64,000 bases of DNA, taken from the IMG/VR virus record IMGVR_UViG_3300042402_003181; one strand, given 5' to 3'. The DNA comes from a virus. The notes below the pieces were generated by a model, which made no database searches, was not told the DNA's origin, and was given only the letters and a program-made list of their open reading frames with translations. Positions 13,320 through 29,684 of this stretch are shown one piece after another. The position numbers and the translations under genes are program-made. Every line of letters begins with the position of its first letter. Within the stretch, counting starts at the first letter, position 1.

Positions 13320-13344
13320 ATACTTGTAAATGGAGATACAAAAA

Positions 13345-14169
13345 ATGCTTACACCAAAAGTAAATTACTTAAACAATAAAGATATGCTGTTAGAAATACA
13401 TAGATCAAAAAGTTCGTATTGTGTCTTTACAGACCCAGCATATCATCAATACGACCTTATTTTACCTAATATTGATAAAATAAATATCCGTACTATCGCT
13501 ACTGCAAAACGGAATCAAGCAAAGCGTATAGGGGACTTAGCATATTTAACTAGAAAGAGCGAAGGCGAAAAAATTAAACAAGCAGAATGCGAGGTTAATT
13601 ATAAAACTATTCCAAAAGAAGATGTAGTATTTAGAATTATGTCATATGAACATATTCCGCTAAACGCAACAAGAAAGAAAAATCCAAAAACAGAAGCAGA
13701 TAAACGAGAAAAAGTAAACTTTCCTCCGTTCCAACATTGGAAATTTATAGATGATCAACTAGTATGTGTAGGCAAGAGCCACTGGAACGGCGACTTAGAA
13801 ACTGGACATTTTGATAAAAATGCAGGTCAAATTACTAATACATTAGCTCGTATGATGATTAAATTATGTGAACGCTATGCTACTAGAGGTAATGTTAGAG
13901 GTTATACCTACAACGATGAAATGCGTGGACAGGCAATATTACAACTAACACAAATTGGATTACAATTTGACGAATCTAAATCAGATAACCCATTTGCGTA
14001 TTTTACAGCAGCAGTTACTAATAGTTTTGTTAGAGTTATTAACATTGAAAAACGAAATCAAAACATTAGAGATGACATTTTAGAAATGAACGGAATGAAT
14101 CCATCGTATACTAGAACAGGATCTGAAGAATATGAAAACGCAATGCGAAGATCAGACGAATATGAATAA
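13345..14169 (+). CDS. gp55: Late-transcription sigma factor, gp55-like
   Basis: NYLNNKDMLLEI at the N-terminus and RGNVRGYTYNDEMRGQAILQL...FDESKSDNPFAYFT...NSFVRVINIEKRNQ are the gp55 signature. It sits next to gp47/46 as in T4. The likely start is 13345 (SD GGAG) rather than 13330. Confidence 0.88.
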   Translation: MLTPKVNYLNNKDMLLEIHRSKSSYCVFTDPAYHQYDLILPNIDKINIRTIATAKRNQAKRIGDLAYLTRKSEGEKIKQAECEVNYKTIPKEDVVFRIMSYEHIPLNATRKKNPKTEADKREKVNFPPFQHWKFIDDQLVCVGKSHWNGDLETGHFDKNAGQITNTLARMMIKLCERYATRGNVRGYTYNDEMRGQAILQLTQIGLQFDESKSDNPFAYFTAAVTNSFVRVINIEKRNQNIRDDILEMNGMNPSYTRTGSEEYENAMRRSDEYE

Positions 14170-14389
14170 TACACTGGATATAGCACATCCTGCACTTGAT
14201 GATGCTTATCAAATTCTTAAAGAAGAACACTTGGATGCTAAAGCTAGTTATATTGAAAAACTGTTTGAAGAAACTTATAAATGCAAAATAATTTTTGATA
14301 ATAGATTTGGCGGTTCAGTTACATTTAACACAAACAAAGATTTAGTTTGGTTTTTATTAAAACACGACTCAACAGGAAATAATGGATAA
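14162..14389 (+). CDS. Hypothetical protein
   Basis: Small ORF overlapping the gp55 stop and the gp47 start (translational coupling). Likely start is ATG 14162. Confidence 0.55.
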   Translation: MNNTLDIAHPALDDAYQILKEEHLDAKASYIEKLFEETYKCKIIFDNRFGGSVTFNTNKDLVWFLLKHDSTGNNG

Positions 14390-15395
14390 TTTATTTAAAA
14401 AAGCAGCAGTTTTTACAGATATCCACTTTGGATTAAAGTCAAATAGCAGTGTACACAATCAAGATTGTGAAGATTTTATAGATTGGTACATTGGTACTGC
14501 TAAAACAGAAGGGTGTGATGTTGGAATCTTTATGGGAGATTGGCATCACAATCGCAACAGTTTAAACATTACAACAATGGATTACAGTCTAAGAGCATTA
14601 GAGAAATTAGGCCAAGCGTTTGATAAATTTTACTTTTTTCCAGGTAATCACGACCTATATTACAAAGATAAACGTGACATACACAGCGTTGAATTTGGCA
14701 AATATATCCCTGGAATTACAGTAGTTCATCATCCAACTACCATTGGGAATGTTACATTATGCCCTTGGTTAGTACATGATGAATGGAAAGAAATTGGTAA
14801 GAAAGGTGCGAAATATATCTTTGGACACTTCGAATTACCTCATTTTTTTATGAACGCAATGGTACAAATGCCTGATCACGGTGAGATTAGTTTAGACTCT
14901 TTTAGCAGTTACGAACTTGGTTTTAGTGGTCATTTTCACAAAAGACAGCAACGTGAAAACATGCATTACATTGGTAATGCATTCCCTCATAACTATGCAG
15001 ATGCATGGGATGATGCAAGAGGTATGATGACATTAGAGTGGGGCGGACAACCAGAATTCTTTACATGGCCTAATCAACCTACATTTAGAACTGTTAAATT
15101 AAGTCAACTTTTAGACGATGCTGATAATATTCTTAAACCAAATCAACACTTAAGAGTAGCATTAGATATTGATATTAGCTTTGAAGAAGCTAGCTTTATT
15201 AAAGAAAAATTTATTGGAGATTACAAATTAAGAGAACTTAAAGTAATTGAAGAACGCAAGTCAATAGATGTATCAAGCAACGTAGACATTGAAGCATTTG
15301 AAAGTATAGACGAAATTGTAGCAACTCAAATTGTAAATATTGACTCTGAAACTTATAACAAAAACACATTATTATCAATCTATAGCAACCTATGA
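14382..15395 (+). CDS. gp47: Recombination endonuclease subunit gp47 (Mre11/SbcD-like)
   Basis: Metallophosphoesterase motifs FTDIHFG, GDWHH, GNHD, GHFE and GHFH. Confidence 0.93.
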   Translation: MDNLFKKAAVFTDIHFGLKSNSSVHNQDCEDFIDWYIGTAKTEGCDVGIFMGDWHHNRNSLNITTMDYSLRALEKLGQAFDKFYFFPGNHDLYYKDKRDIHSVEFGKYIPGITVVHHPTTIGNVTLCPWLVHDEWKEIGKKGAKYIFGHFELPHFFMNAMVQMPDHGEISLDSFSSYELGFSGHFHKRQQRENMHYIGNAFPHNYADAWDDARGMMTLEWGGQPEFFTWPNQPTFRTVKLSQLLDDADNILKPNQHLRVALDIDISFEEASFIKEKFIGDYKLRELKVIEERKSIDVSSNVDIEAFESIDEIVATQIVNIDSETYNKNTLLSIYSNL

Positions 15396-17155
15396 AAATA
15401 CAAAATTTAACTGTAAAGAATTTTATGAGTGTAGGGAATCAAACTCAGGCTGTAGATTTTGAGAAAGAAAACTTAACACTTGTACTAGGAGAAAACTTAG
15501 ATCAAGGCGGCGACGATGCAGGATCTAGAAATGGTACAGGCAAGACGACTATCGTAAACGCATTGAGTTATGCGCTTTACGGTACTGCTCTTACTAACAT
15601 TAAAAAAGACAATTTAATCAACAAAATCAATAATAAGAACATGTTAGTTACATTGTCTTTTGAAAAGGATGGTAACACATACCGCATAGAACGTGGGCGC
15701 AAACCAACTGTTCTTAAGTTCTTTGTTAACGAAGAATCACAAGTTTTAGCAGACGATGCACAAGGCGATATGAGAGAAACACAAAAAGACTTGCATCACT
15801 TATTTGGTATGAGTCATGATATGTTCAAACATATTGTTGCATTAAACACTTATACAGAACCGTTCTTATCAATGAGGGCAAATGATCAACGAGAAATCAT
15901 TGAGCAACTGTTAGGTATTACATTGCTAAGTGAAAAAGCTGAAACACTTAAAGAGCAAGTTAGACAAACCAAAGATACAATTTATCAAGAAACTGCTAAT
16001 ATTGAAGCTGCTAAAAAGTCAAATGAGCGTATTCAACAAAGTATTGATACTTTGTTATTAAGACAAAAAGCATGGTATAGTCAACAAGAAACTGATCTTG
16101 AAAAACTTGCTCGTGCTATTGTAGAAATGGAAAGTGTAGACATTGAATCTGAAATTGCTAACCACGCGTTACTAAAAGATTACTTAGAACAACGTGCAAC
16201 AATAGCAAGTCTTAACAAAGAAAAAGCAACTTTAGAGTCTGCATCAAGTCAAGCTACTAAAACTAGAGACAAATATGTTAGAGAAATTGACGCACTTGAT
16301 AACAAAAAATGTCATGCTTGTGAACAAGAATTACACGATCACAAACACACAGAATTATTAGAAACTGCCACACAACATTTGCTCGAAGCACAGAAATATT
16401 TTGATAAAGTATCAAATGATTACAATAAAATATGCAATGAGCTAGCTAATATTACAGTTATTGAAACTAGACCAGATACATATTATGACACACTTGAGCA
16501 AGCATTAAAACACCAAACTAACTTTAGATCTTTAGAACAACAGTTAGAAGTTAAAGCAGTTGACACTGATCCATACCAAGAACAAATTGACGAAATGCGG
16601 AATGCTGCATTACAAGAGATTAGCTGGGATAAGATTAACGAAGCAACTGCACTTAAAGATCACCAAGAGTTTTTGCTTAAACTACTCACAAATAAAGACA
16701 GTTTTATCCGTAAAAAAATTATAGATCAAAATTTAGCGTACTTAAACAATCGGTTAACATACTACTTAGATAAGATGGGATTACCGCATAATGTTGTATT
16801 CCAAAACGATTTAAGTGTTGAAATTACACAACTTGGACAGGATTTAGATTTTCATAATCTTTCAAGAGGAGAAATGAATAGAGTTATTATTTCGTTAAGT
16901 TTAGCTTTTCGAGATGTATGGGAAAGCTTATATCAAAAAATTAACCTACTGTTTGTTGACGAATTGTTAGACAACGGGCTTGATTCAAACGGCATTGAGT
17001 GTGCGTTGTCAATCTTAAAAGCTAGAGCTAGACAATCAGATTCGTCAATTTGGTTAATTAGTCATAAAGAAGAATTAATCGGACGAGTAGACAACATATT
17101 GCGAGTTTACAAAGAAAACGGTTTTACGAATTACGATTATCCAACTATACAATGA
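15392..17155 (+). CDS. gp46: Recombination ATPase subunit gp46 (Rad50/SbcC-like)
   Basis: Walker A GSRNGTGKTT, a coiled coil with Zn-hook CHAC, signature LSRGE, Walker B LLFVDE and H-loop LISH. Confidence 0.95.
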   Translation: MKIQNLTVKNFMSVGNQTQAVDFEKENLTLVLGENLDQGGDDAGSRNGTGKTTIVNALSYALYGTALTNIKKDNLINKINNKNMLVTLSFEKDGNTYRIERGRKPTVLKFFVNEESQVLADDAQGDMRETQKDLHHLFGMSHDMFKHIVALNTYTEPFLSMRANDQREIIEQLLGITLLSEKAETLKEQVRQTKDTIYQETANIEAAKKSNERIQQSIDTLLLRQKAWYSQQETDLEKLARAIVEMESVDIESEIANHALLKDYLEQRATIASLNKEKATLESASSQATKTRDKYVREIDALDNKKCHACEQELHDHKHTELLETATQHLLEAQKYFDKVSNDYNKICNELANITVIETRPDTYYDTLEQALKHQTNFRSLEQQLEVKAVDTDPYQEQIDEMRNAALQEISWDKINEATALKDHQEFLLKLLTNKDSFIRKKIIDQNLAYLNNRLTYYLDKMGLPHNVVFQNDLSVEITQLGQDLDFHNLSRGEMNRVIISLSLAFRDVWESLYQKINLLFVDELLDNGLDSNGIECALSILKARARQSDSSIWLISHKEELIGRVDNILRVYKENGFTNYDYPTIQ

Positions 17156-17880
17156 AACAGTCAATACCGTACCTTTACCAGTGGATTCACATACCTACTA
17201 ATAAATGGTATATAGGATCAAAAACGCAAGCTGGGTGGAATCCAGCTTGCCATGAGAATTACCTGTGTTCAAGTAAAATAGTAAAGCCGTTAATTTTAGA
17301 AAATAGAAATGACTGGAGATATGAAATCTTAGCAATCGGCCCTGCATCATATATAAGAAAATTAGAATCCGATTACCTTACAATTTTAGATGCTAAAAAC
17401 GATCCTATGAGTTTTAATCAATCAAATGCTAAAATTGATCCAGGAAATAGATTAGGTAGAATCGAGTCAAAAATAACTCGTGCAAAGAAAAGTTTAGCAA
17501 GGCAAGGAGATAAAAATCCTATGTACGGTAAAAGGGGTGAATTAAGTCCACACTTTGGAAAACATCACTCTGCAGAAGTTAAACAAAAACAAAGCGATGG
17601 TGTTAAAAATTATGCAGCATTTCGCCCAGCAACACATAATGAAAATATAAGTAAATCATTAAAAGGAAATCCTAAAGTAGGATTAAAAGGCGAAAAAAAT
17701 CCAATGTATGGAAAATCTGCATCTGACTATAATAAACAAATGTCCAAGTTAAAAAATTCAGGAGATAACAATCCGATGAAGCAACTTAAACATCAACGAA
17801 CATGCGAGCATTGTAACAAGACGATTGCAAAAAATCATTATACTCTGTTTCACGGTGACAAATGTAAATTAAAATCGTAA
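17152..17880 (+). mobile_element. Free-standing GIY-YIG-type homing endonuclease with NUMOD3 repeats (Seg-like)
   Basis: N-terminal YLYQW...NKWYIGS (a GIY-YIG variant), NUMOD3-like repeats GDKNPMYGK, FGKHHSAEVKQKQS, GEKNPMYGK and GDNNPM, and a C-terminal CEHC...HGDKC. It overlaps the gp46 stop (ATGA). Confidence 0.82.
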
Positions 17881-18280: not shown

Positions 18281-18799
18281 ATGCCAAGTAAGAGCAAATC
18301 AAAAGGGAACAGTTGGGAAAATACAGTATCAAAACATTTAAGCTCACTGTATAATGCATCTTTCATGCGGGTGCCAGGCAGCGGTGCTTATATTGGAGGT
18401 AAGAATGCAGTACGTAAAGACTTCTTACATGAAGGACAAATACGTTCTATGAAAGGTGATATTGTGCCGCCATTAAATTGGAAACACTTTAATGCTGAAT
18501 GTAAATCTTATGCTGATTTTCCATTTCATCAATTGTTTACTGCAGGTGAAATTAAGATTTTAGATACTTGGATTGAGCAAACTTTAGAAGTTGCTGATAC
18601 AGATGATTTCAATATTATTATGATGAAGTTTAATCGCAAAGGCTCTTATGTTGCGTTTGAACATAAACATTTCAAAAAATTCAAACTACAAAAAAGTGTA
18701 GACTATTACTCCAAAAAGAACGGTAAATGGGTGTTTACTGATTACGATTCTTTTTGGAGTGAAAATAAAGATGTTGTTGAGAAACTTTCTAAAGTGTAA
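18281..18799 (+). CDS. Holliday junction resolvase, PD-(D/E)xK type
   Basis: MPSKSKSKGNSWEN..., RVPGSGA, GDIV and ECKSY match the phage Hjc-like resolvase pattern. SD AAGGA. Confidence 0.8.
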   Translation: MPSKSKSKGNSWENTVSKHLSSLYNASFMRVPGSGAYIGGKNAVRKDFLHEGQIRSMKGDIVPPLNWKHFNAECKSYADFPFHQLFTAGEIKILDTWIEQTLEVADTDDFNIIMMKFNRKGSYVAFEHKHFKKFKLQKSVDYYSKKNGKWVFTDYDSFWSENKDVVEKLSKV

Positions 18800-19775
18800 G
18801 ATCTGTTGAGTCAACAGGTTTATCTAATGAATTGATAATCTCATTAACATTTAACAGTGGTATATTATATTTTGTTACTGCATACGTAGCAACATCACTA
18901 CACAGACTAAGAAATTCGCTGTAGCTACTTGTCCATTTCATCATATTCATTCTAACTAATACAAACTCAACGTTTCCTTTATGATATCCTTTCAACGGAT
19001 CTAATCGATCTGGGCTTGATTTAAGTCCAGATAATCTACCTTGATCTAATTTTGTTTTTCCTTCATAAAATGGGAGATGTGTAAATGCACATTTCCATTC
19101 TTGTTTATTAATTAAATCCCATAAATCTTGATATGACATAGATACTGAAAATCTATCCTCTATTTGTTTTCCGTCTTCTAACTTTTCTAACCTAGAAGTT
19201 AATCGATCATAAATGCTAGTTGCAGCAATAAACCACATTTTATGTTTAGTATCGTTGTTATTGTAGTCAGATGGTAGCGGACCTTTAATATTCCTTACAT
19301 ACTGTTGTATAGCTAATGATTTTTTATATCTTTCTTTCTCACGTTCTAACGGTTCTTTATATCTTTTATCCGAAGCTATTATTGCATCTGCATTGTAATT
19401 AAATGTTTCAATAGGTAAACCGGTGTATAAGCATTGCCTCCGTAATGAGACAACTTTATACTCATTGGGTGTAAGTTCTGGTTTTATTGATAAAGCTCGT
19501 TTTATAAGTTTATATCGGTCAGAAATAATTTCAAAAACTTTAGCTGCACGGTCGTTATAAAAATTAAACATTTTTTCTGTAATTTCAAACGTTTCTCGAG
19601 AATCAAGTACTTTTGTAAGCTCATCTCTTACTTTATGCAATGACTCCATGTCAGTCCGTTGTAGATAAAATCCAAGAGGAAATGGATAATTTTTATATGG
19701 TTTTCCCTTTATATGTATTATAGTTTTTGTAAGTTTTTTTGTTAAAGTGTCTTTGTATTTCTCTGGTGTGCTCAT
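18789..19775 (-). CDS. Protein with a C-terminal His-Me-finger/HNH-like nuclease domain (paralogue 2)
   Basis: C-terminal WKCAFTHLPF...SSPDRLDPLKGYHKGNVEFVLVRMNMMK. The likely start is ATG 19775, directly after the TGA of the upstream paralogue. Confidence 0.65.
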   Translation of the reverse strand: MSTPEKYKDTLTKKLTKTIIHIKGKPYKNYPFPLGFYLQRTDMESLHKVRDELTKVLDSRETFEITEKMFNFYNDRAAKVFEIISDRYKLIKRALSIKPELTPNEYKVVSLRRQCLYTGLPIETFNYNADAIIASDKRYKEPLEREKERYKKSLAIQQYVRNIKGPLPSDYNNNDTKHKMWFIAATSIYDRLTSRLEKLEDGKQIEDRFSVSMSYQDLWDLINKQEWKCAFTHLPFYEGKTKLDQGRLSGLKSSPDRLDPLKGYHKGNVEFVLVRMNMMKWTSSYSEFLSLCSDVATYAVTKYNIPLLNVNEIINSLDKPVDSTDLTL

Positions 19776-19776
19776 T

Positions 19777-20793
19777 TCAAATACTTCCATTTTTAGTATT
19801 TACTGTATTTCTATCATGTATAAATTTACACAATGATACAAATTGGTCTGTTGTTAATTGGTTTTTCATAACGTTAATTGCATGTGTAGTAAACCAAAGA
19901 TTACCTACTTCATAAGATCTATCTGAATTAATTCGATCAAAGCTTAATCGATTGTTTGTTTCATTAAATTCTCTATTAGATAACGCACATCGCCATTCTT
20001 GTAATTGTATTATATCCCACATTTCTAAAAATGTTATTGTAGACTCTCTCCGTAATACTACATCTCTTGCAAGTGTTAGCCATTGTGCATGCAACGGATT
20101 GTTAGTGTCAAGATCAGGAGGTAATGGGGTTTCTGCCATCCGTTTTTTAGATTCTTTTCTACGGTCAGATGTTTTATAATCGGAATCACGATCATTAAGA
20201 AAATTAGTAAATATATCAATTTTACTTTTTGCATCTTCTTCAGATACAGGTGTATATTCTATAAAACTTTTTAAATATTCGTATTGTTCAGGTGTTACTT
20301 GATCTCTAAAATAACCATATTTTGAATATAATTGAACATTCTCTTTTGAATTGAGAAAATTAGTAATATCGTTTACAAATGTAGTATAAAATGGTATTCG
20401 TTTACCTTGTACTACCGGTTTAGTATTAGGTGTTAGTACTCCGGTAGATGGTTTTCGTTGCGATAGAACATATTGTTTTAATTGATCCATACTACTATAC
20501 AACGAACTATAATTAACATCTGTTCCGTTACCATAAATGTTTTTTAAATCATTATAAAATTTCATTAATTCCAGTATTACCGGCCATGTTCGTCCTTCAG
20601 GTGATCTAAGATTATCAGTATGGTTATCATGAACTCGTGTATTAACATAAAATGGACCTTTATAATCATCACGAAGAAATTGCTCAATATCAGCTATTAA
20701 GTTTTTATATTGTTTTTTATATGTAGTAATCGGTATCGCAGCTTTAGGCTTAGGTGTAATATCAGATTCTTTTAAAATATCTATAACTCTCAT
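19777..20793 (-). CDS. Protein with a C-terminal His-Me-finger/HNH-like nuclease domain (paralogue 1)
   Basis: C-terminal WRCALSNREF...LSFDRINSDRSYEVGNLWFTTHAINVMK. The likely start is ATG 20793 (SD AGGAA; late promoter GTAAATA at 20814-20820). Confidence 0.65.
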   Translation of the reverse strand: MRVIDILKESDITPKPKAAIPITTYKKQYKNLIADIEQFLRDDYKGPFYVNTRVHDNHTDNLRSPEGRTWPVILELMKFYNDLKNIYGNGTDVNYSSLYSSMDQLKQYVLSQRKPSTGVLTPNTKPVVQGKRIPFYTTFVNDITNFLNSKENVQLYSKYGYFRDQVTPEQYEYLKSFIEYTPVSEEDAKSKIDIFTNFLNDRDSDYKTSDRRKESKKRMAETPLPPDLDTNNPLHAQWLTLARDVVLRRESTITFLEMWDIIQLQEWRCALSNREFNETNNRLSFDRINSDRSYEVGNLWFTTHAINVMKNQLTTDQFVSLCKFIHDRNTVNTKNGSI

Positions 20794-20813
20794 GTGTGTT
20801 CCTATATTGTGTA

Positions 20814-20820
20814 TATTTAC
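20814..20820 (-). promoter_or_regulatory. Late promoter GTAAATA for the nuclease-like pair
   Basis: The plus strand reads TATTTAC, 21 nt upstream of ATG 20793. Confidence 0.55.
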
Positions 20821-20838
20821 CATCGGTAATAATAGCAG

Positions 20839-20867
20839 TTGACTTTTGATACTAATGACTGTATAAT
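20839..20867 (+). promoter_or_regulatory. Sigma70-type promoter upstream of rnhA
   Basis: TTGACT-N17-TATAAT, with hexamers and spacing identical to the gp55 promoter. A late motif ATAAATA follows at 20898-20904. Confidence 0.8.
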
Positions 20868-20945: not shown

Positions 20946-21365
20946 ATGGAAGAACTCGTAATAATTTATACAGACGGCGCATGTGTACCAAATCCAGGTA
21001 AAGGCGGATGGGGTGCTACTATGCAATACAGAGACGTCATTAAAGAATTTTCTGGAACAGAACCACAAACTACTAACAACCGCATGGAAATGCAAGCTGC
21101 TATTGAAGCACTATCGCGTTTAAAAAGACCATGCAAAGTTAAAATTTATTCTGATTCAAAATATCTAGTTGATGGCTTTACACAATGGTTTCCTAATTGG
21201 AAAAAGAAAGGGCGTACTGATTACTTAAATCGTGATCTATGGCTTAAATTAGAAACTGTTGCTGCTGCACACACTATAGATTGGCAATGGGTTAAAGCCC
21301 ATGCAGGTAATCCAGGTAACGAACGCGCTAATGATTTAGCAGAAGCTGCTGCTCGTAACAACTAA
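20946..21365 (+). CDS. rnhA: Ribonuclease HI (E. coli RnhA type)
   Basis: IYTDGAC.PNPG.GGWG, TTNNRMEMQAAIEAL, YSDSKY and WVKAHAGNPGNERA. Confidence 0.95.
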   Translation: MEELVIIYTDGACVPNPGKGGWGATMQYRDVIKEFSGTEPQTTNNRMEMQAAIEALSRLKRPCKVKIYSDSKYLVDGFTQWFPNWKKKGRTDYLNRDLWLKLETVAAAHTIDWQWVKAHAGNPGNERANDLAEAAARNN

Positions 21366-21396
21366 CCACTTTTAACCCCTTGTTTAAAACACTTTT

Positions 21397-21403
21397 GTAA
21401 ATA
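21397..21403 (+). promoter_or_regulatory. Late promoter GTAAATA upstream of the non-coding structured region
   Basis: Motif 32 nt after the rnhA stop. No substantial ORF follows for about 650 nt. Confidence 0.55.
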
Positions 21404-21445
21404 CTAGACAAAACACACAAAACACTTTTAATTCACACTAACATA

Positions 21446-21852
21446 AGGTTGGCAGGCCGGATTGTAATACTGCTGAGACAAGTTCTGGAAACGAGAACCG
21501 CTGCTCAAATCGTTGATTGTGCAACGACTTTTAAACACTACCCTCTCGCAAGAGGATGCCAAAAGCAACGTCCATTGATGTCAATGCTTTGTTTAATCGG
21601 AATGGTGGTCTAGCTGTATTTGAAAAAGAATACATAGGCTTTAAATCTGTAGAATACTAGTAATAGTAACAATTTTGTAATGATATACGAAGCACCTGAA
21701 AGTTATATCTTAAAAATACCTGTAAGTGTTGGTCCGGAGGTAGCCAATAGCAAAAGTCTACAGTCATATAAATTCTTACTGCAAATTCCATGGCGATGGG
21801 GTGAAATCATGCATCTATTTTTATTAGGGTGCATCTGACTTCAAAAGTGATA
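21446..21852 (+). ncRNA. Candidate large structured non-coding RNA (~400 nt, family unassigned)
   Basis: ORF-less and richer in G/C than its flanks. Many stems are visible: 21449-55/21470-76, 21482-98 (GAAA loop), 21510-27, 21542-55, a 7-bp long-range helix 21647-53/21757-63 enclosing 21655-68 (GUAA loop), 21682-87/21704-09 and 21727-33/21743-49, plus 21786-21801 and 21809-34. Confidence 0.55.
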
Positions 21853-21856
21853 TCTC

Positions 21857-22040
21857 TTTATTAAAATAATTAAATTATATTAATTCATTTATAATTTAAT
21901 TGTTTTTTTCATTATTGTTGTTAGAGAGAATAGTATTGAGCGATAGCGAAATACAGATGAACGTTAGTTCATCTTTTAATATGAAATATATTTTTTAATA
22001 AATATTCATATTATATAAGGGATATTGCGTTTGCAATATC
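21857..22040. other. AT-rich tract (3 G/C in 60 nt) followed by stacked inverted repeats; origin-like or regulatory
   Basis: 21857-21916 is 95% A/T. Hairpins at 21933-54, 21955-74 (AGATGAAC/GTTCATCT), 21978-22012 (AATATGAA/TTCATATT) and 22021-40 (GATATTGC/GCAATATC). Confidence 0.5.
21998..22004 (+). promoter_or_regulatory. Late promoter ATAAATA
   Basis: Upstream of ATG 22052 (SD AAAGGA). Confidence 0.6.
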
Positions 22041-22051
22041 AAAGGAATATT

Positions 22052-22903
22052 ATGAAAATTTACGAAGTTACTAATCAACTTCCAAGCAAGAAAATACTTG
22101 CTCAGGAATTAAGTAAAATATACGAAGCTGATGCTCCGCCTGATCCTGGGTTCTTTTCTAAATTAGGACGTGTGTTGCATAAAAGTTTAAAACTGTTTAG
22201 TTGGTACGAAGCATTATGGAAACCGTTTGACACGTATATGGTAAACATGCAACAAGTTGAAGCCAATCTAACTAAAGCCGGTAACACTCCAGCTGCAATT
22301 GCTGAATTTAATGAGCAGCATGAACTGCAAATGGGTCAATTAATTGCAGGATTATCTGCAGGAATTATAGTTAGCGGAATACTTGGATCACTTAGTACAT
22401 TTGGAAAATTTTTACAATTTATTCCAGGTATTGGTGGCCCACTAGGAAAAACTATAGGATTGTTATCTGACGGAGCTAGAGCATGGATATTATACGAACT
22501 TCAGTCTGAAACAGGAAGATCAGCAATTGCTAAATTAGTGGTTTTTACTGGAGTTAATTATGATATTGACTGGCTTGGTGTTCATATTCACGGAGACGTT
22601 AATATAACACAAATAATTGGTAAACTAGGTGTTGAAGCACACGATTATTTTGAAGATTTATTTAGACGTGCAATTGGATTAAAAGAATTAGATAAACCCA
22701 TTAATGGAAAAGACCAGTTAGATCCAAATGCGCCACCGCCAACTCCACCGTTAACGCCAGCACAAGATGCAAGTCTAACGGCACAGATGTTTAGCACAAA
22801 TAAACCAGTTGAAAAAGAATTGCCTGTTCCAGGTGAATACCTAGGATCTAGATTGCAACGTAATCCCGTAACAGGCAGAGTAGAAATGAAGTCATTACAA
22901 TAA
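22052..22903 (+). CDS. Hypothetical protein with hydrophobic segments (possible internal/ejected virion protein)
   Basis: Starts MKIYEV... after SD AAAGGA. It has a hydrophobic Gly-rich stretch (LIAGLSAGIIVSGILGSLSTFGKFLQFIPGIGG) and a Pro-rich C-terminus. Confidence 0.7.
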   Translation: MKIYEVTNQLPSKKILAQELSKIYEADAPPDPGFFSKLGRVLHKSLKLFSWYEALWKPFDTYMVNMQQVEANLTKAGNTPAAIAEFNEQHELQMGQLIAGLSAGIIVSGILGSLSTFGKFLQFIPGIGGPLGKTIGLLSDGARAWILYELQSETGRSAIAKLVVFTGVNYDIDWLGVHIHGDVNITQIIGKLGVEAHDYFEDLFRRAIGLKELDKPINGKDQLDPNAPPPTPPLTPAQDASLTAQMFSTNKPVEKELPVPGEYLGSRLQRNPVTGRVEMKSLQ

Positions 22904-23128
22904 TGGCATTCTAGATACTTTTGTCATTTCTATATTTTCTTCAATTACATTATACATAATCATACGATCTTCGTGACTTAGGTTATACAGGAGATCGTTG
23001 ATTGACACTCCTCCTCTCATATACCACGATATTTTAAATAATTCATGTTTAAATCGTTTAACTTCGTTATCTAGCCTAATTAGATATTGACTAATTGAAT
23101 CTCTTGATTGTCCAATTAGGCGGGATCG
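22895..23128 (-). CDS. -1 frameshift extension of the gp26-like gene (77 aa, no in-frame start of its own in the 5' half)
   Basis: The open -1 frame reads RSRLIGQSRDSISQYLIRLDNEVKRFKHELFKISWYMRGGVSINDLLYNLSHEDRMIMYNVIEENIEMTKVSRMPLL*. It is entered at the slippery heptamer T TTT TTC (plus strand 23128-23134). Not in the ORF track. Confidence 0.7.
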   Translation of the reverse strand, partial: RSRLIGQSRDSISQYLIRLDNEVKRFKHELFKISWYMRGGVSINDLLYNLSHEDRMIMYNVIEENIEMTKVSRMPLL

Positions 23129-23946
23129 AAAAAATTCGATTGATCTAAGTCAACTGATATTGATGACTCGTGGTTACAATCAAGGTTACTACAAATTACT
23201 TTTACTGCTGGAATTTTCCAATCAGATTTAGTTTGATCTAAATGTGCTTTAATAATATTAAAAATTTGTTTATCGCAATTTTGTAACCATTCTGAAATAA
23301 AATTAGATTCAGTTACTACTATTTTTCCAGTATCAATTGATTCGATACTAGCCGAATAAACTTCATTTTGCATTTTACCTAATTCAATAAACAAATCATG
23401 TACAACTTCTTTATATTTCTCTGCAGGTTCAATTGGAGTTGCTGCTAATTGTTGCTGCATTTTAAAATTTCTTAAAGAAAACTCAGTAGTTTGTTTATAA
23501 TTTAGTGGTTGCAATTTGATAGTTAATGTGCCAACTTCAATTGTATTATTGTATATACAACTACTAAAATGATCGATCACTGTACCTAAATCAATATCGT
23601 AATCGTTTTCTGTTTTACATTTTGGGCATGTATGTACAACTTCTAACACACTCCCATGAGTAGCAATTCGAATTGCTGTTAGTAGTAGATCAACATCTAA
23701 TGTAGTTACTGCCCAACCGTCTTTAATTGACGGGCAGCAGCTTTCAATTAGTTTCACTGAACTATCACCGGATAATAATGCATCCGGAGTTTTCATTATG
23801 ATATCGTCCATACCTGTCATACCAAATATTGGCATGTGTGTAGGATCACCAGTAAATGTTCCTAATTGATTGTATATTCCTTTTGAAGGTAAAGAAACGA
23901 ATATTTTTGGTTGTCTATAAAATTCTTGTAAAGGGTTTTGTGCCAT
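23116..23946 (-). CDS. gp26-like baseplate-hub/tail assembly protein (probable tail assembly chaperone)
   Basis: 276 aa with NPLQEFYRQPKIFVSLPSKG, MKTPDALLSG, DVDLLLTAIRIATHG and CPKC...C..DC Zn motifs. It is adjacent to the tape-measure-like gene. Confidence 0.7.
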   Translation of the reverse strand: MAQNPLQEFYRQPKIFVSLPSKGIYNQLGTFTGDPTHMPIFGMTGMDDIIMKTPDALLSGDSSVKLIESCCPSIKDGWAVTTLDVDLLLTAIRIATHGSVLEVVHTCPKCKTENDYDIDLGTVIDHFSSCIYNNTIEVGTLTIKLQPLNYKQTTEFSLRNFKMQQQLAATPIEPAEKYKEVVHDLFIELGKMQNEVYSASIESIDTGKIVVTESNFISEWLQNCDKQIFNIIKAHLDQTKSDWKIPAVKVICSNLDCNHESSISVDLDQSNFFDPA

Positions 23947-29324: not shown

Positions 29325-29335
29325 TAAATAGATAT

Positions 29336-29572
29336 ATGATACTTAGAGAACTTTTTTATATTGACCCTAACACACGCCATGTTGCTAGTGATATGCGGTA
29401 CAATCCTGATAATGATAAATCGGTAATGCAGCGTTCAGATACACGCAAAACACGTTTATCTCTTAGGCAAATTAATGAATTACGTAAGAGCAGTGAAGCT
29501 CATATTTTAGAACAAGAAGTTGAATTATCATTCGTTAACGCAATGTATTCAACTCCACCACCTGCAGTATAA
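29336..29572 (+). CDS. Small prohead/internal protein (gp67/68 position)
   Basis: MILRELFY..., directly behind late promoter ATAAATA (29324-29330), between the portal and core genes. Confidence 0.65.
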   Translation: MILRELFYIDPNTRHVASDMRYNPDNDKSVMQRSDTRKTRLSLRQINELRKSSEAHILEQEVELSFVNAMYSTPPPAV

Positions 29573-29645
29573 ATAATTCTAAAATATTAAAAAAACCACC
29601 GGTTTGACCCCATATTTACATTCTTTTTTATAAGTAGTGTAAATA
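29568..29645 (+). promoter_or_regulatory. Tandem late promoters for the head core/protease/scaffold/capsid operon
   Basis: TATAAATA (exact T4 consensus) at 29568-29575 and GTAAATA at 29639-29645, with SD CAGGAG before 29685. Confidence 0.7.
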
Positions 29646-29684
29646 TAAGACAGCCTTGTATAAAAATTATCACAGGAGATTAAC

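What the first reader, a model, noticed from the sequence alone, without database searches (positions are those of the whole stretch)
21397..21852. Candidate ~400-nt ornate structured RNA, late-promoter driven, directly downstream of phage RNase HI
In an otherwise densely packed genome, about 690 bp (21366-22051) carry no substantial ORF. After a GTAAATA late-promoter motif and an unstructured A/C-rich leader, 21446-21852 is visibly G/C-enriched and can be folded by eye into at least ten helices. Several have GNRA loops (GAAA 21488-91, GUAA 21660-63, optionally GCAA 21548-51), and a 7-bp long-range helix CUGUAGA/UCUACAG closes a ~100-nt multi-stem domain. The loop of the 5' hairpin (CCGGA, 21457-61) is complementary to UCCGG at 21733-37, and that site lies in a self-complementary UCCGGA, giving pseudoknot or intermolecular kissing potential. 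It lacks the hallmarks of tRNA, tmRNA, RNase P RNA and self-splicing introns. Large phage-associated ornate RNAs (GOLLD, ROOL) and phi29 pRNA are precedents for multimerising RNAs. That this is a new class is inference.
Basis: partly seen in the sequence, partly recalled or inferred. Interest (0 to 1): 0.85.

Follow-up and report, generated by a model that had tools for sequence, protein, structure and literature searches.

The report
Divergent Polynucleobacter-1-type phage RNA gene
The gene-free stretch behind the RNase HI gene of this uncultured giant T4-like freshwater phage encodes a real, conserved, folded non-coding RNA of about 420 bases (about 550 with its terminator); it is a strongly diverged copy of the partly catalogued, still unexplained "Polynucleobacter-1" phage RNA, not a new class.

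Summary
Window 21366-22051 has no conserved ORF. Its core (21435-21855) is 81-99% identical in 18 viral and 5 metagenome contigs. That is more conserved than third codon positions of the neighbouring rnhA, and far more than the leader and the AT-rich spacer.

A curated fold of 98 pairs is paired in 97.6% of cells. Nine pairs changed on both sides, against 3.4 in shuffles and 0-1 in slid controls. G-U pairs and the terminator put the RNA on the + strand.

It is not a new class. Rfam gives no hit, but related phages carry the Rfam motif Polynucleobacter-1 (RF01718) at the same gp46-to-gp26 slot, on the same strand, before the same hairpin-plus-terminator module. An intermediate copy in a complete 372-kb relative scores 61 bits with my model of this RNA's 5' domain and 26.6-28.7 bits with Polynucleobacter-1 models. 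That links the two families.

Both complete relatives carry three diverged copies. The RNase H neighbour is specific to this lineage. The "late promoter" is one base off this phage's consensus. Folding energy is no better than shuffles. Nothing supports multimerisation or an origin.

Function is unknown. This scan has already found the same family on other DNA.

The parts
20839..20867 (+). Sigma-70-like promoter (TTGACT-17-TATAAT, 11 of 12) upstream of rnhA. It is the probable source of read-through transcription into the RNA.
   Evidence: The sequence is conserved in relatives. No terminator-like site lies between it and 21955.
20946..21365 (+). RNase HI gene (139 aa). It is the upstream neighbour in this lineage only.
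   Evidence: Pfam PF00075 at 2e-44 and phrog_531. It lies upstream of the RNA in all 18 IMG/VR contigs of this family. It is absent upstream of 101 main-family loci.
21366..21434 (+). Variable leader holding the late-promoter-like motif GTAAATA (21397-21403).
   Evidence: Only 42-67% identical in the distant relatives, with indels. The motif position is kept and reads ATAAATA in L033, L025 and L035. The genome-wide late motif is ATAAATA.
21435..21855 (+). Conserved core of the non-coding RNA.
   Evidence: 81-99% identical across 9 distinct versions. The ORFs inside it are not conserved. 98 pairs are 97.6% paired, 9 of them with changes on both sides.
21441..21609 (+). 5' domain with Polynucleobacter-1 architecture. 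Helices: P1 21452-55/21470-73; P2 21474-80/21502-07 and 21482-86/21494-98; P3 21510-15/21522-27; P4 21531-36/21591-96; P5 21542-45/21552-55; P6 21562-72/21577-90. The junction ACUACCC..GGAUG lies at 21537-21558.
   Evidence: Covariation: 7 pairs with double changes against 1.7 in shuffles, 0 of 500 shuffles as high. Model R1 hits the intermediate copy L193 at 61 bits, and its weak hits fall on Polynucleobacter-1 sites. R2 local alignments of P3 and P4-P6 are colinear.
21607..21640 (+). Variable-length hairpin on a conserved base helix (GGUC/GGCU).
   Evidence: Replaced by a shorter hairpin in L025 and a longer one in L035, each still folding. The base pair at columns 184-240 changes from U-G to A-U.
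21647..21763 (+). It holds hairpin UACUA-GUAA-UAGUA (21655-68), hairpin 21682-87/21704-09 and the invariant 37-nt block 21691-21727, which has ACCUG twice.
   Evidence: Hairpin 21655-68 covaries (U-A to C-G) in L026 and L035. The block is invariant in all versions. The closing helix is invariant apart from one G-U.
21727..21745 (+). 3' strand of the long-range or pseudoknot pairing with 21447-21469. It includes UCCGG and the invariant GGAGGUAGCC.
   Evidence: RNAalifold predicts it. Pairs show G-U to A-U or G-C changes at five positions and one double change. Four positions have 1-2 breaks.
21764..21855 (+). 3' domain. It holds hairpins 21785-91/21796-21802 and 21810-16/21827-33, and possibly GUCA/UGAC (21763-66/21836-39). 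It also has the imperfect 9-nt repeat GUGAAAUCA (21801-09) and GUGAUAUCU (21847-55).
   Evidence: The helices are mostly invariant. L035 breaks several pairs under the MAFFT alignment. The main family has GUCAUAUAAA..UGACU in the same order.
21856..21932 (+). AT-rich spacer, poorly conserved.
   Evidence: G+C about 0.22. 56-68% identical in the distant relatives, with indels.
21933..21954 (+). Conserved 3' hairpin with a GAG..GAA internal loop (GUAUU-GAG-CGAUAGC-GAA-AUAC).
   Evidence: With the terminator, this is the only stretch with significant sequence similarity to the main Polynucleobacter-1-long family (nhmmer E about 1e-7 both ways). It occurs once in the 176-kb record. The outer pairs covary in the main family. 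Copies L192 and L193 have the same layout.
21955..21980 (+). Intrinsic terminator (8-bp stem, GUUA loop, U run).
   Evidence: The stem covaries with L006 (GAUGAAC/GUUCAUC against GAAGAAC/GUUCUUC).
21998..22004 (+). Consensus late motif ATAAATA, 48 nt before the start of ORF 22052-22903. This is a separate transcription unit and not part of the RNA.
   Evidence: The motif is conserved in relatives.

Best explanation
Window 21435-21980 (+) is a gene for a stable, intricately folded non-coding RNA. It is a strongly diverged copy of the large phage RNA whose first third is catalogued as the Polynucleobacter-1 motif.

Shown:
- It is non-coding, under purifying selection and folded with covariation.
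- It lies on the + strand.
- It ends in a dedicated GA-loop hairpin plus intrinsic terminator.
- It occupies the same gp55-gp47-gp46 ... gp26 slot as canonical Polynucleobacter-1-long RNAs.
- It is linked to them by an intermediate paralogue.
- Both complete relatives keep three diverged copies.

Inferred:
- It is transcribed mainly by read-through from the sigma-70-like rnhA promoter (early). A weak late-type promoter at 21397 may add to this.
- It acts in trans as a folded RNA. Its invariant unpaired segments (21691-21727, GGAGGUAGCC) and its 3' GA hairpin would bind a conserved phage or host partner.
- It works independently of RNase HI.
For: Non-coding:
- ORFs are lost or frameshifted in relatives.

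Selection:
- The core is 93-94% identical where rnhA position 3 is 71-80% and the spacer is 68%.

Fold:
- 5' domain: 98.3% of cells paired, 7 double-changed pairs against 1.7 in shuffles.
- Whole RNA: 97.6% paired, 9 against 3.4, slid controls 0-1.
- The variable-length hairpin is kept as a hairpin.

Strand:
- Invariant G-U pairs and the terminator.

Kinship:
- RF01718 sits at the syntenic place in L004, L006 and L007 (99, 73 and 69 bits).
- The 3' module is shared.
- Synteny holds.
- L193 scores 61 bits with R1, 26.6 bits with R2 and 28.7 bits with RF01718.
- Weak R1 hits fall on Polynucleobacter-1 sites in L007 and in 7 of 20 further loci (about 5 distinct sequences), where about 0.6 would be expected by chance.
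- L025 carries the CUGAUGUGUG loop of the L004-type P2.

Independent genes:
- Paralogues L192 and L193 have their own sigma-70-like promoters, and L193 has a scan-detected terminator.

RNase H is not a partner:
- 98 of 101 main-family loci have a GIY-YIG gene upstream and none has rnhA.
Against:
- MFE is no better than shuffles.
- RF01718 and my 60-sequence model R2 do not detect this window directly. Kinship therefore rests on an intermediate, on synteny and on weak hits.
- Only 9 distinct versions in about 6 lineages exist. Many helices never vary, and the 3' domain fold and the 7-bp helix are untested.
- No partner is identified, so the trans-acting mode is inference.
Confidence: 0.72

Rival explanations
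1. Self-assembling 'ornate' RNA. The RNA multimerises through the self-complementary UCCGGA and loop-loop contacts, like ROOL, GOLLD or phi29 pRNA, and forms a cage or ring during infection.
For: - Size and complexity are comparable.
- CCGG is self-complementary.
- The RNA is phage-borne.
- Several copies per genome.
Against: - CCGG is not kept. It reads CCAG/UUGG, CCAG/UGGG and CCGG/UGGG in L035, L023 and L025, which loses self-complementarity. Intramolecular pairing is kept in L035, while L023 and L025 each break one pair.
- No Rfam similarity to ROOL or GOLLD.
- Nothing here tests assembly.
Confidence: 0.07
2. RNA-primed (R-loop or ColE1-like) replication origin. The structured transcript invades the AT-rich tract 21856-21932 and is cut by the adjacent RNase HI to prime DNA synthesis.
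For: - rnhA sits directly upstream, and an AT-rich tract follows the structured core.
- T4-type phages use R-loop origins (established knowledge).
- Three copies per 372-kb genome could be several origins.
Against: - The AT tract is the least conserved part.
- rnhA is absent from 101 main-family loci.
- A dedicated terminator module ends the RNA after the tract.
- The cumulative GC-skew minimum lies 8 kb away, at a switch in gene orientation.
- A primer does not need about 100 conserved base pairs and invariant loops.
Confidence: 0.06
3. Cis-acting untranslated region. The element is a 3' UTR that stabilises or regulates the rnhA mRNA, or a leader controlling ORF 22052-22903.
For: - No terminator lies between rnhA and the element.
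- In the main family the RNA starts right after the stop codon of the upstream gene.
Against: - The upstream gene differs between families (rnhA against GIY-YIG), and paralogues have no upstream gene but their own promoter.
- The downstream ORF is separated by a terminator and has its own late motif. It is hypervariable at 32% aa identity.
- 420 nt with pseudoknots is far beyond usual UTR elements.
Confidence: 0.07
4. RNA cofactor of a nuclease. The superfamily RNA works with the catalytic-only GIY-YIG protein encoded beside it in most phages, as guide, activator or inhibitor. In this lineage it would serve another nuclease (RNase HI or the RusA-like protein), or a GIY-YIG protein encoded elsewhere.
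For: - 98 of 101 main-family loci have the small GIY-YIG gene directly upstream on the same strand.
- The two 7-nt boxes are identical within each RNA in 56 of 56 main-family sequences, with 4 different words.
- phrog_447-like genes exist elsewhere in the complete relatives.
Against: - This family and the promoter-driven paralogues lack an adjacent GIY-YIG gene.
- No co-varying twin boxes were found in this family.
- No complementarity to any target was shown.
Confidence: 0.06
5. Decayed or tiny protein-coding genes: a pseudogene, or small ORFs such as 21680-21838.
For: An ATG-started ORF begins at 21680 in all 9 versions, at 40-52 aa.
Against: - Single-base indels shift its frame in the L030/L033/L026 clade and in L025. 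Its conserved start lies inside the invariant RNA block.
- No Shine-Dalgarno sequence lies before it.
- The 54-aa ORF is lost in 4 versions.
- No Pfam hits.
- Substitutions are compensatory in helices.
Confidence: 0.02

Closest known systems
Polynucleobacter-1 RNA motif (Rfam RF01718; Weinberg et al. 2010, Genome Biol 11:R31, PMC2864571, Additional file 1)
   Same: - The 5' domain has the same order of elements. A hairpin with a GCC-starting loop is followed by two hairpins. A closing helix then encloses two hairpins, and the junction ACUAYCC..GGAYG sits at the same place.
- Same genomic slot and strand in T4-like freshwater phages, and the same GA-hairpin plus terminator module downstream.
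- An intermediate copy scores significantly with models of both.
- Function is unknown for both.
   Different: - No direct hit to RF01718 even at E of 10 or less.
- Upstream gene is rnhA, not the GOS11034/GIY-YIG gene.
- The Rfam model covers 141 nt, whereas this RNA is about 420 nt plus the 3' module.
- The middle domain 21647-21763, with its invariant 37-nt block, has no recognisable counterpart.
Extended 'Polynucleobacter-1-long' phage RNA. I found no paper describing it, but it is seen here in more than 120 IMG/VR contigs and in earlier notes of this scan.
   Same: - Total size of about 400-450 nt.
- A 5' Polynucleobacter-1 domain and a variable hairpin after it.
- A hairpin whose loop holds CCGGA (UACCGGAUGACCG there, UCCGGAGGUAG here).
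- GUCAUAUAAA followed later by UGACU.
- The same terminal module.
   Different: - Sequence similarity is significant only in the 3' module.
- The order of the CCGGA hairpin and GUCAUAUAAA is reversed.
- The invariant 17-mer GGUACCGGAUGACCGCC and the strictly identical twin 7-nt boxes (56 of 56) are absent here. There is only an imperfect 9-nt repeat.
ROOL and GOLLD large ornate RNAs (Rfam RF03087, RF01998)
   Same: Large, multi-helix, often phage-borne non-coding RNAs of unknown function.
   Different: - No similarity to any Rfam model at the gathering score or at E of 10 or less.
- Smaller than either.
- No evidence of assembly.
- Different hosts and phage groups (from my own knowledge of those families).
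ColE1 RNA II and T4 oriF/oriG R-loop origins
   Same: A promoter-driven transcript next to an AT-rich tract, with an RNase H nearby.
   Different: - The AT tract is not conserved.
- A terminator module follows the tract.
- RNase H is absent from most family members.
- No GC-skew signal at the locus.

Membership tests
Polynucleobacter-1 RNA (Rfam RF01718) | Scores at or above the family's gathering score (37 bits) with the Rfam covariance model | tested here: not met
   No hit in the window at the gathering score, none at E of 10 or less in 21300-22100, and none in the whole 176-kb record. Syntenic RNAs of L006, L004 and L007 score 99, 73 and 69 bits.
Polynucleobacter-1 RNA (Rfam RF01718) | Secondary-structure layout P1, P2, P3, then P4 enclosing P5 and P6 | tested here: met
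   The same layout was drawn on A3. 98.3% of cells are paired, with double changes in P2, P3, P5 and P6. R2 aligns P3 and P4-P6 colinearly, though at insignificant scores.
Polynucleobacter-1 RNA (Rfam RF01718) | Most conserved sequence: junction ACUAYCC, loop, GGAYG between P4, P5 and P6 | tested here: met
   The window has CACUACCC..GGAUG at 21536-21558. The same ACUACCC..GGAUGA variant occurs in family members L068, L069 and L182.
Polynucleobacter-1 RNA (Rfam RF01718) | Homology shown by sequence or profile statistics, directly or through intermediates | tested here: met
   Direct tests are weak. R1 against L007 gives 11.8 bits, E about 0.1. 7 of 32 weak hits fall on Polynucleobacter-1 sites. 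R2 against the window gives nothing. Through the intermediate L193, the link is significant: R1 61 bits (E 9e-15), R2 26.6 bits (E 4e-7), RF01718 28.7 bits (E 4e-5 per genome), nhmmer 4e-7.
Polynucleobacter-1 RNA (Rfam RF01718) | Lies downstream of a GOS11034-type (small GIY-YIG) gene (Weinberg 2010) | tested here: not met
   The upstream gene here is rnhA. 98 of 101 main-family loci have the GIY-YIG gene. No phrog_447 match in the 176-kb record.
Extended Polynucleobacter-1-long phage RNA | Invariant hairpin GGUACCGGAUGACCGCC and two identical 7-nt boxes in the 3' part | tested here: not met
   The 17-mer is absent. Only a similar loop UCCGGAGGUAG is present. No pair of co-varying identical words was found in this family, against 56 of 56 in the main family.
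Extended Polynucleobacter-1-long phage RNA | Terminal GA-loop hairpin plus terminator, and a position between the gp46 block and gp26 | tested here: met
   nhmmer E of 2e-7 to 4e-8 for 21925-21980. Synteny holds.
ROOL / GOLLD / other Rfam large RNAs, RNase P, tmRNA, group I/II introns | Match to the family covariance model | tested here: not met
   No hits at the gathering score in 64 kb. The only hit at E of 10 or less in 21300-22100 is a chance 20-nt hairpin match to c4-a1b1. No tRNA or tmRNA.
R-loop / ColE1-type origin | Persistent RNA-DNA hybrid at a DNA unwinding element, processed by RNase H to a primer | not testable with these tools
   Only indirect evidence, all against: an unconserved AT tract, the GC-skew minimum elsewhere, and rnhA absent from most family loci.

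The most novel reading that the evidence does not exclude
The superfamily is a modular, target-specifying RNA. Giant freshwater T4-like phages would keep three specialised paralogues. Their hypervariable parts (twin boxes in the canonical copy, the CCGG-type loops and the 37-nt block in this copy) would each address a different nucleic-acid or protein target during infection. This rnhA-linked copy would then be a functionally distinct, box-less specialist and not a drifting duplicate.
Probability: 0.1. Interest if true: 0.85.

Novelty: new variant of a known kind. Interest (0 to 1): 0.55.

Why it matters
Large structured RNAs of unknown function are rare, and each one has opened new biology.

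This result has four consequences:
- An orphan 141-nt Rfam motif from 2010 is only the first third of a 400-450-nt RNA. That RNA is widespread in uncultured aquatic T4-like phages.
- The family has diverged so far that Rfam misses whole branches, this one included.
- Giant phages keep up to three diverged copies.
- The apparent RNase H partnership is removed as a lead.

A model built from this branch and the intermediate copies would let databases annotate these gaps. It would also give experimenters defined constructs.

Tried and rejected
- GenBank phage BLAST, near and distant modes: no match.
- Rfam at the gathering score and at E of 10 or less: nothing relevant.
- tRNA and tmRNA scans: none.
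- Metagenome pattern scan: only 5 true hits, all close relatives. The other 17 were chance.
- Bacterial genome scan with an invariant 18-mer: 4 chance hits and no homologue, so no host clue.
- R1 with default filters on 679 kb: no hits.
- R2 on the whole window: only junk alignments.
- nhmmer in both directions finds only the 3' module.
- Search for co-varying twin boxes in this family: negative.
- GC-skew test for an origin: the minimum is at window position about 13.5 kb, a gene-orientation switch, not at the RNA.
- Local CCGGA hairpin UUGG/CCAA: the outer pair fails in 5 of 9 versions, and the UUGGC/GCCAA alternative fails.
- Coding readings were rejected.
- Synteny with T4 oriF (uvsW/uvsY) was considered and dropped. 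The neighbours are gp55, gp47 and gp46.
Full report
**Setting**

The window is part of a 176-kb IMG/VR virus record, estimated about half complete. It belongs to a T4-like phage.
- gp55 late sigma factor is at 13330-14169, gp47 at 14382-15395 and gp46 at 15392-17155.
- A GIY-YIG-type homing endonuclease is at 17152-17880 and a RusA-like protein at 18281-18799.
- Two HNH/EndoVII-like genes lie on the minus strand at 18789-20823.
- RNase HI is at 20946-21365 and a gp26-like baseplate hub at 23116-23946 on the minus strand.
- Complete relatives are 372 kb with terminal repeats.

**Observation**

The gap 21366-22051 has only ORFs of 54 aa or less. It is one of six gaps of 300 nt or more in a record that is 95% coding. 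G+C is 0.37-0.41 in 21400-21700, against 0.22-0.31 around it. This test is weak for real RNAs, so I relied on comparative evidence.

**Relatives and selection**

GenBank phages hold nothing similar. In IMG/VR, a gp26 search, an rnhA search and three exact-word scans converge on the same 18 contigs. A metagenome scan adds 5 close relatives. There are nine distinct versions. The most distant, L025 and L035, are 75% identical to the window and 66% to each other.

Identity to the window, by segment:

| Relative | Core 21435-21855 | rnhA codon position 3 | Leader | AT spacer |
|---|---|---|---|---|
| L033 | 94.3% | 71.2% | 42% | 68% |
| L030 | 93.3% | 79.9% | 91% | 68% |
| L035 | 81.0% | 67.6% | 42% | 65% |

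Conservation starts sharply at 21435. The 54-aa ORF is lost in four versions. The ORF at 21680 is frameshifted by single-base indels in two clades. The element is therefore non-coding and under purifying selection.

**Structure**

RNAalifold on 9 versions gave 111 pairs, 9 of them with changes on both sides. I curated a model in window coordinates and counted pairs.
- 5' domain: 42 pairs, 98.3% of cells paired. Seven pairs have double changes, against 1.7 +/- 1.0 in shuffles (0 of 500 as high) and 0-1 in slid controls.
- Whole RNA: 98 pairs, 97.6% paired. Nine pairs have double changes, against 3.4 +/- 1.1 (0 of 500), with slid controls 0-1.

The best-supported helices are:
- P3 (21510-15/21522-27), with three covarying pairs;
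- P2a;
- P5, once L025 is realigned;
- P6a (21568-72/21577-81);
- the base of the variable hairpin;
- hairpin 21655-68, where U-A changed to C-G in two separate lineages.

The hairpin at 21607-40 is replaced by a shorter one in L025 and a longer one in L035 on the same base helix. This is typical of structured RNAs.

Five positions switch among G-U, G-C and A-U, and one position has a double change. Four positions are broken in one or two versions. The local hairpin P1 (GCAG/CUGC) is invariant within the family but covaries in the paralogue L193 (ACGG/CCGU). A pseudoknot between the P1 loop and 21727-37 therefore fits best.

The 7-bp helix CUGUAGA/UCUACAG is invariant apart from one G-U. It competes with alternatives that are equally invariant. 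Many invariant G-U pairs, together with the terminator, fix the + strand.

**Ends**

A sigma-70-like promoter (TTGACT-17-TATAAT, 11 of 12) precedes rnhA. The next terminator-like site is at 21955-74. Read-through from an early promoter into the RNA is therefore likely.

The late motif of this phage is ATAAATA. Of its 54 copies, 26 lie within 60 nt upstream of a same-strand gene start. GTAAATA behaves like background, at 5 of 61. The window has GTAAATA at 21397. L033, L025 and L035 have ATAAATA at the aligned place, although the leader around it is otherwise poorly conserved. A late start is thus possible, but weak here.

Downstream, 21933-54 forms a hairpin with a GAG..GAA internal loop, followed by the terminator. 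ORF 22052 has its own consensus late motif at 21998.

**Identity**

More distant gp26-bearing contigs (L004, L006, L007) have a gap of about 430 nt at the syntenic place on the same strand. Its first 133-145 nt are Rfam Polynucleobacter-1, at 99, 73 and 69 bits.

Weinberg et al. 2010 described that motif from freshwater and marine metagenomes. They found it downstream of GOS11034 genes and did not find it in purified phage. Its function is unknown.

The rest of the gap is also conserved. An invariant 17-mer from it hits more than 120 IMG/VR contigs. The whole region of about 400 nt covaries strongly. In 98 of 101 such loci a small GIY-YIG gene lies directly upstream.

Synteny is shared. In both groups the order is gp47, gp46, a small conserved ORF, variable nuclease genes, the RNA, the terminal module, a variable ORF, a small ORF and gp26.

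Sequence similarity between the two families is significant only for the terminal module (nhmmer about 1e-7 both ways). That module occurs only once in the 176-kb record.

Direct tests of the 5' domain:
- My model R1, built from the window family, gives as its best hit in 48 kb the Polynucleobacter-1 site of L007. The alignment is full length, at 11.8 bits and E about 0.1.
- In 20 further loci, 7 of 32 weak hits fall exactly on the Polynucleobacter-1 domain in register. About five of these are independent, and about 0.6 would be expected by chance.
- The reverse model R2, built from 60 main-family sequences, does not find the window. Its best local alignments inside the element are the colinear P3 and P4-P6, at insignificant scores.

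**The link between the families**

The two complete 372-kb relatives each contain three copies:
- the rnhA-linked copy;
- a canonical Polynucleobacter-1-long copy, at 60-61 bits, with the 17-mer;
- an intermediate copy (L193/L201 in one genome, L202 in the other).

L193 scores 61.0 bits (E 9e-15) with R1, 26.6 bits (E 4e-7) with R2 and 28.7 bits with RF01718. All three are full-length alignments. L025 also carries the CUGAUGUGUG loop typical of the L004-type P2.

I conclude that the window RNA is a diverged member of this superfamily. It fails the Rfam threshold and lacks two hallmarks of the main branch, the 17-mer and the strictly identical twin boxes. Those boxes are identical in 56 of 56 main-family sequences and absent here. 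The paralogues L192 and L193 have their own sigma-70-like promoters, and a terminator was detected for L193, so these are independent RNA genes.

**Function**

Nothing here reveals the function. The facts constrain it as follows:
- The neighbour genes differ between branches, so RNase HI is not a required partner.
- The AT tract is unconserved, and the GC-skew minimum is 8 kb away. This speaks against an origin.
- CCGG loses self-complementarity in three versions. This speaks against obligatory kissing dimers.
- The invariant parts (21691-21727, GGAGGUAGCC and the 3' GA hairpin) are the best candidates for contacts with a partner.

I therefore commit, as inference, to a trans-acting folded RNA made from early read-through transcripts and possibly from late ones.

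**Earlier notes of this scan**

The same rnhA-linked family was reported on another genome (e1-5370389, e1-5370387). The extended twin-box RNA was reported many times. I re-derived kinship, the lineage-specific rnhA link, the three paralogues and the twin boxes with my own calls. These notes are not independent evidence.

Noticed in passing
L191, L192 (canonical), L193/L201 and L202 (intermediate), in the complete 372-kb relatives G001 and G002: Each complete relative carries three diverged copies of the RNA superfamily, at about 97/131 kb, 240/272 kb and 322/353 kb. L192 and L193 have their own sigma-70-like promoters, a GAG..GAA hairpin and a downstream AGGACU..AGUCCU hairpin, which the scan called a terminator only in L193.
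   Followed up: partly
Main-family loci L067-L186, e.g. L006:7040-7475(-): In the Polynucleobacter-1-long family, two 7-nt boxes (ACUC-box-GU and AUCU-box-AU) are identical within each RNA in 56 of 56 sequences. Four words occur: AGAUAAU, GGAUAAU, GCAUAAU and GGAUGAU. The cause is unexplained.
   Followed up: partly
window 21801-21809 and 21847-21855: Imperfect direct repeat GUGAAAUCA / GUGAUAUCU in the 3' domain. It is 8 of 9 identical in L023 and does not co-vary in L035. UGCAUCU also occurs twice (21810-16 and 21830-36), and both copies read UGCACCU in L035.
   Followed up: partly
window 18789-20823 (-) and 17152-17880 (+): Two tandem HNH/EndoVII-like genes and a GIY-YIG-type endonuclease gene. 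The close relative L003 lacks them (gp46, the 99-aa ORF, the RusA-like gene and rnhA are contiguous there), while L009 has the HNH pair. They look like mobile homing-endonuclease insertions around the RNA locus.
   Followed up: partly
window 22052-22903 (+): The ORF between the RNA terminator and the gp26 block is hypervariable. It is about 32% aa identical or unrecognisable in relatives whose rnhA is 87-100% identical. It has no Pfam or PHROG family. L004 and L007 have unrelated or distant ORFs of 346-380 aa at this place.
   Followed up: no
G000:C1 168829-169799, 170220-171619, 171968-172910 (outside the window): Three gaps of 940-1400 nt near the end of the record, without ATG-started ORFs of 80 aa or more. 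ARAGORN finds no tRNA in the whole record. They were not examined further.
   Followed up: no
window 29325-29684: A second gap of 360 nt in the window without an ATG-started ORF of 80 aa or more. Rfam at the gathering score finds nothing there.
   Followed up: no
L006:7476-7913(-), L004:8597-9022(-), L007:2754-3179(-): The small gene upstream of canonical Polynucleobacter-1 RNAs (Weinberg's GOS11034) is a 141-145-aa catalytic-only GIY-YIG protein. It matches phrog_447, which is labelled 'NAD synthetase'. That label looks like a misannotation.
   Followed up: partly
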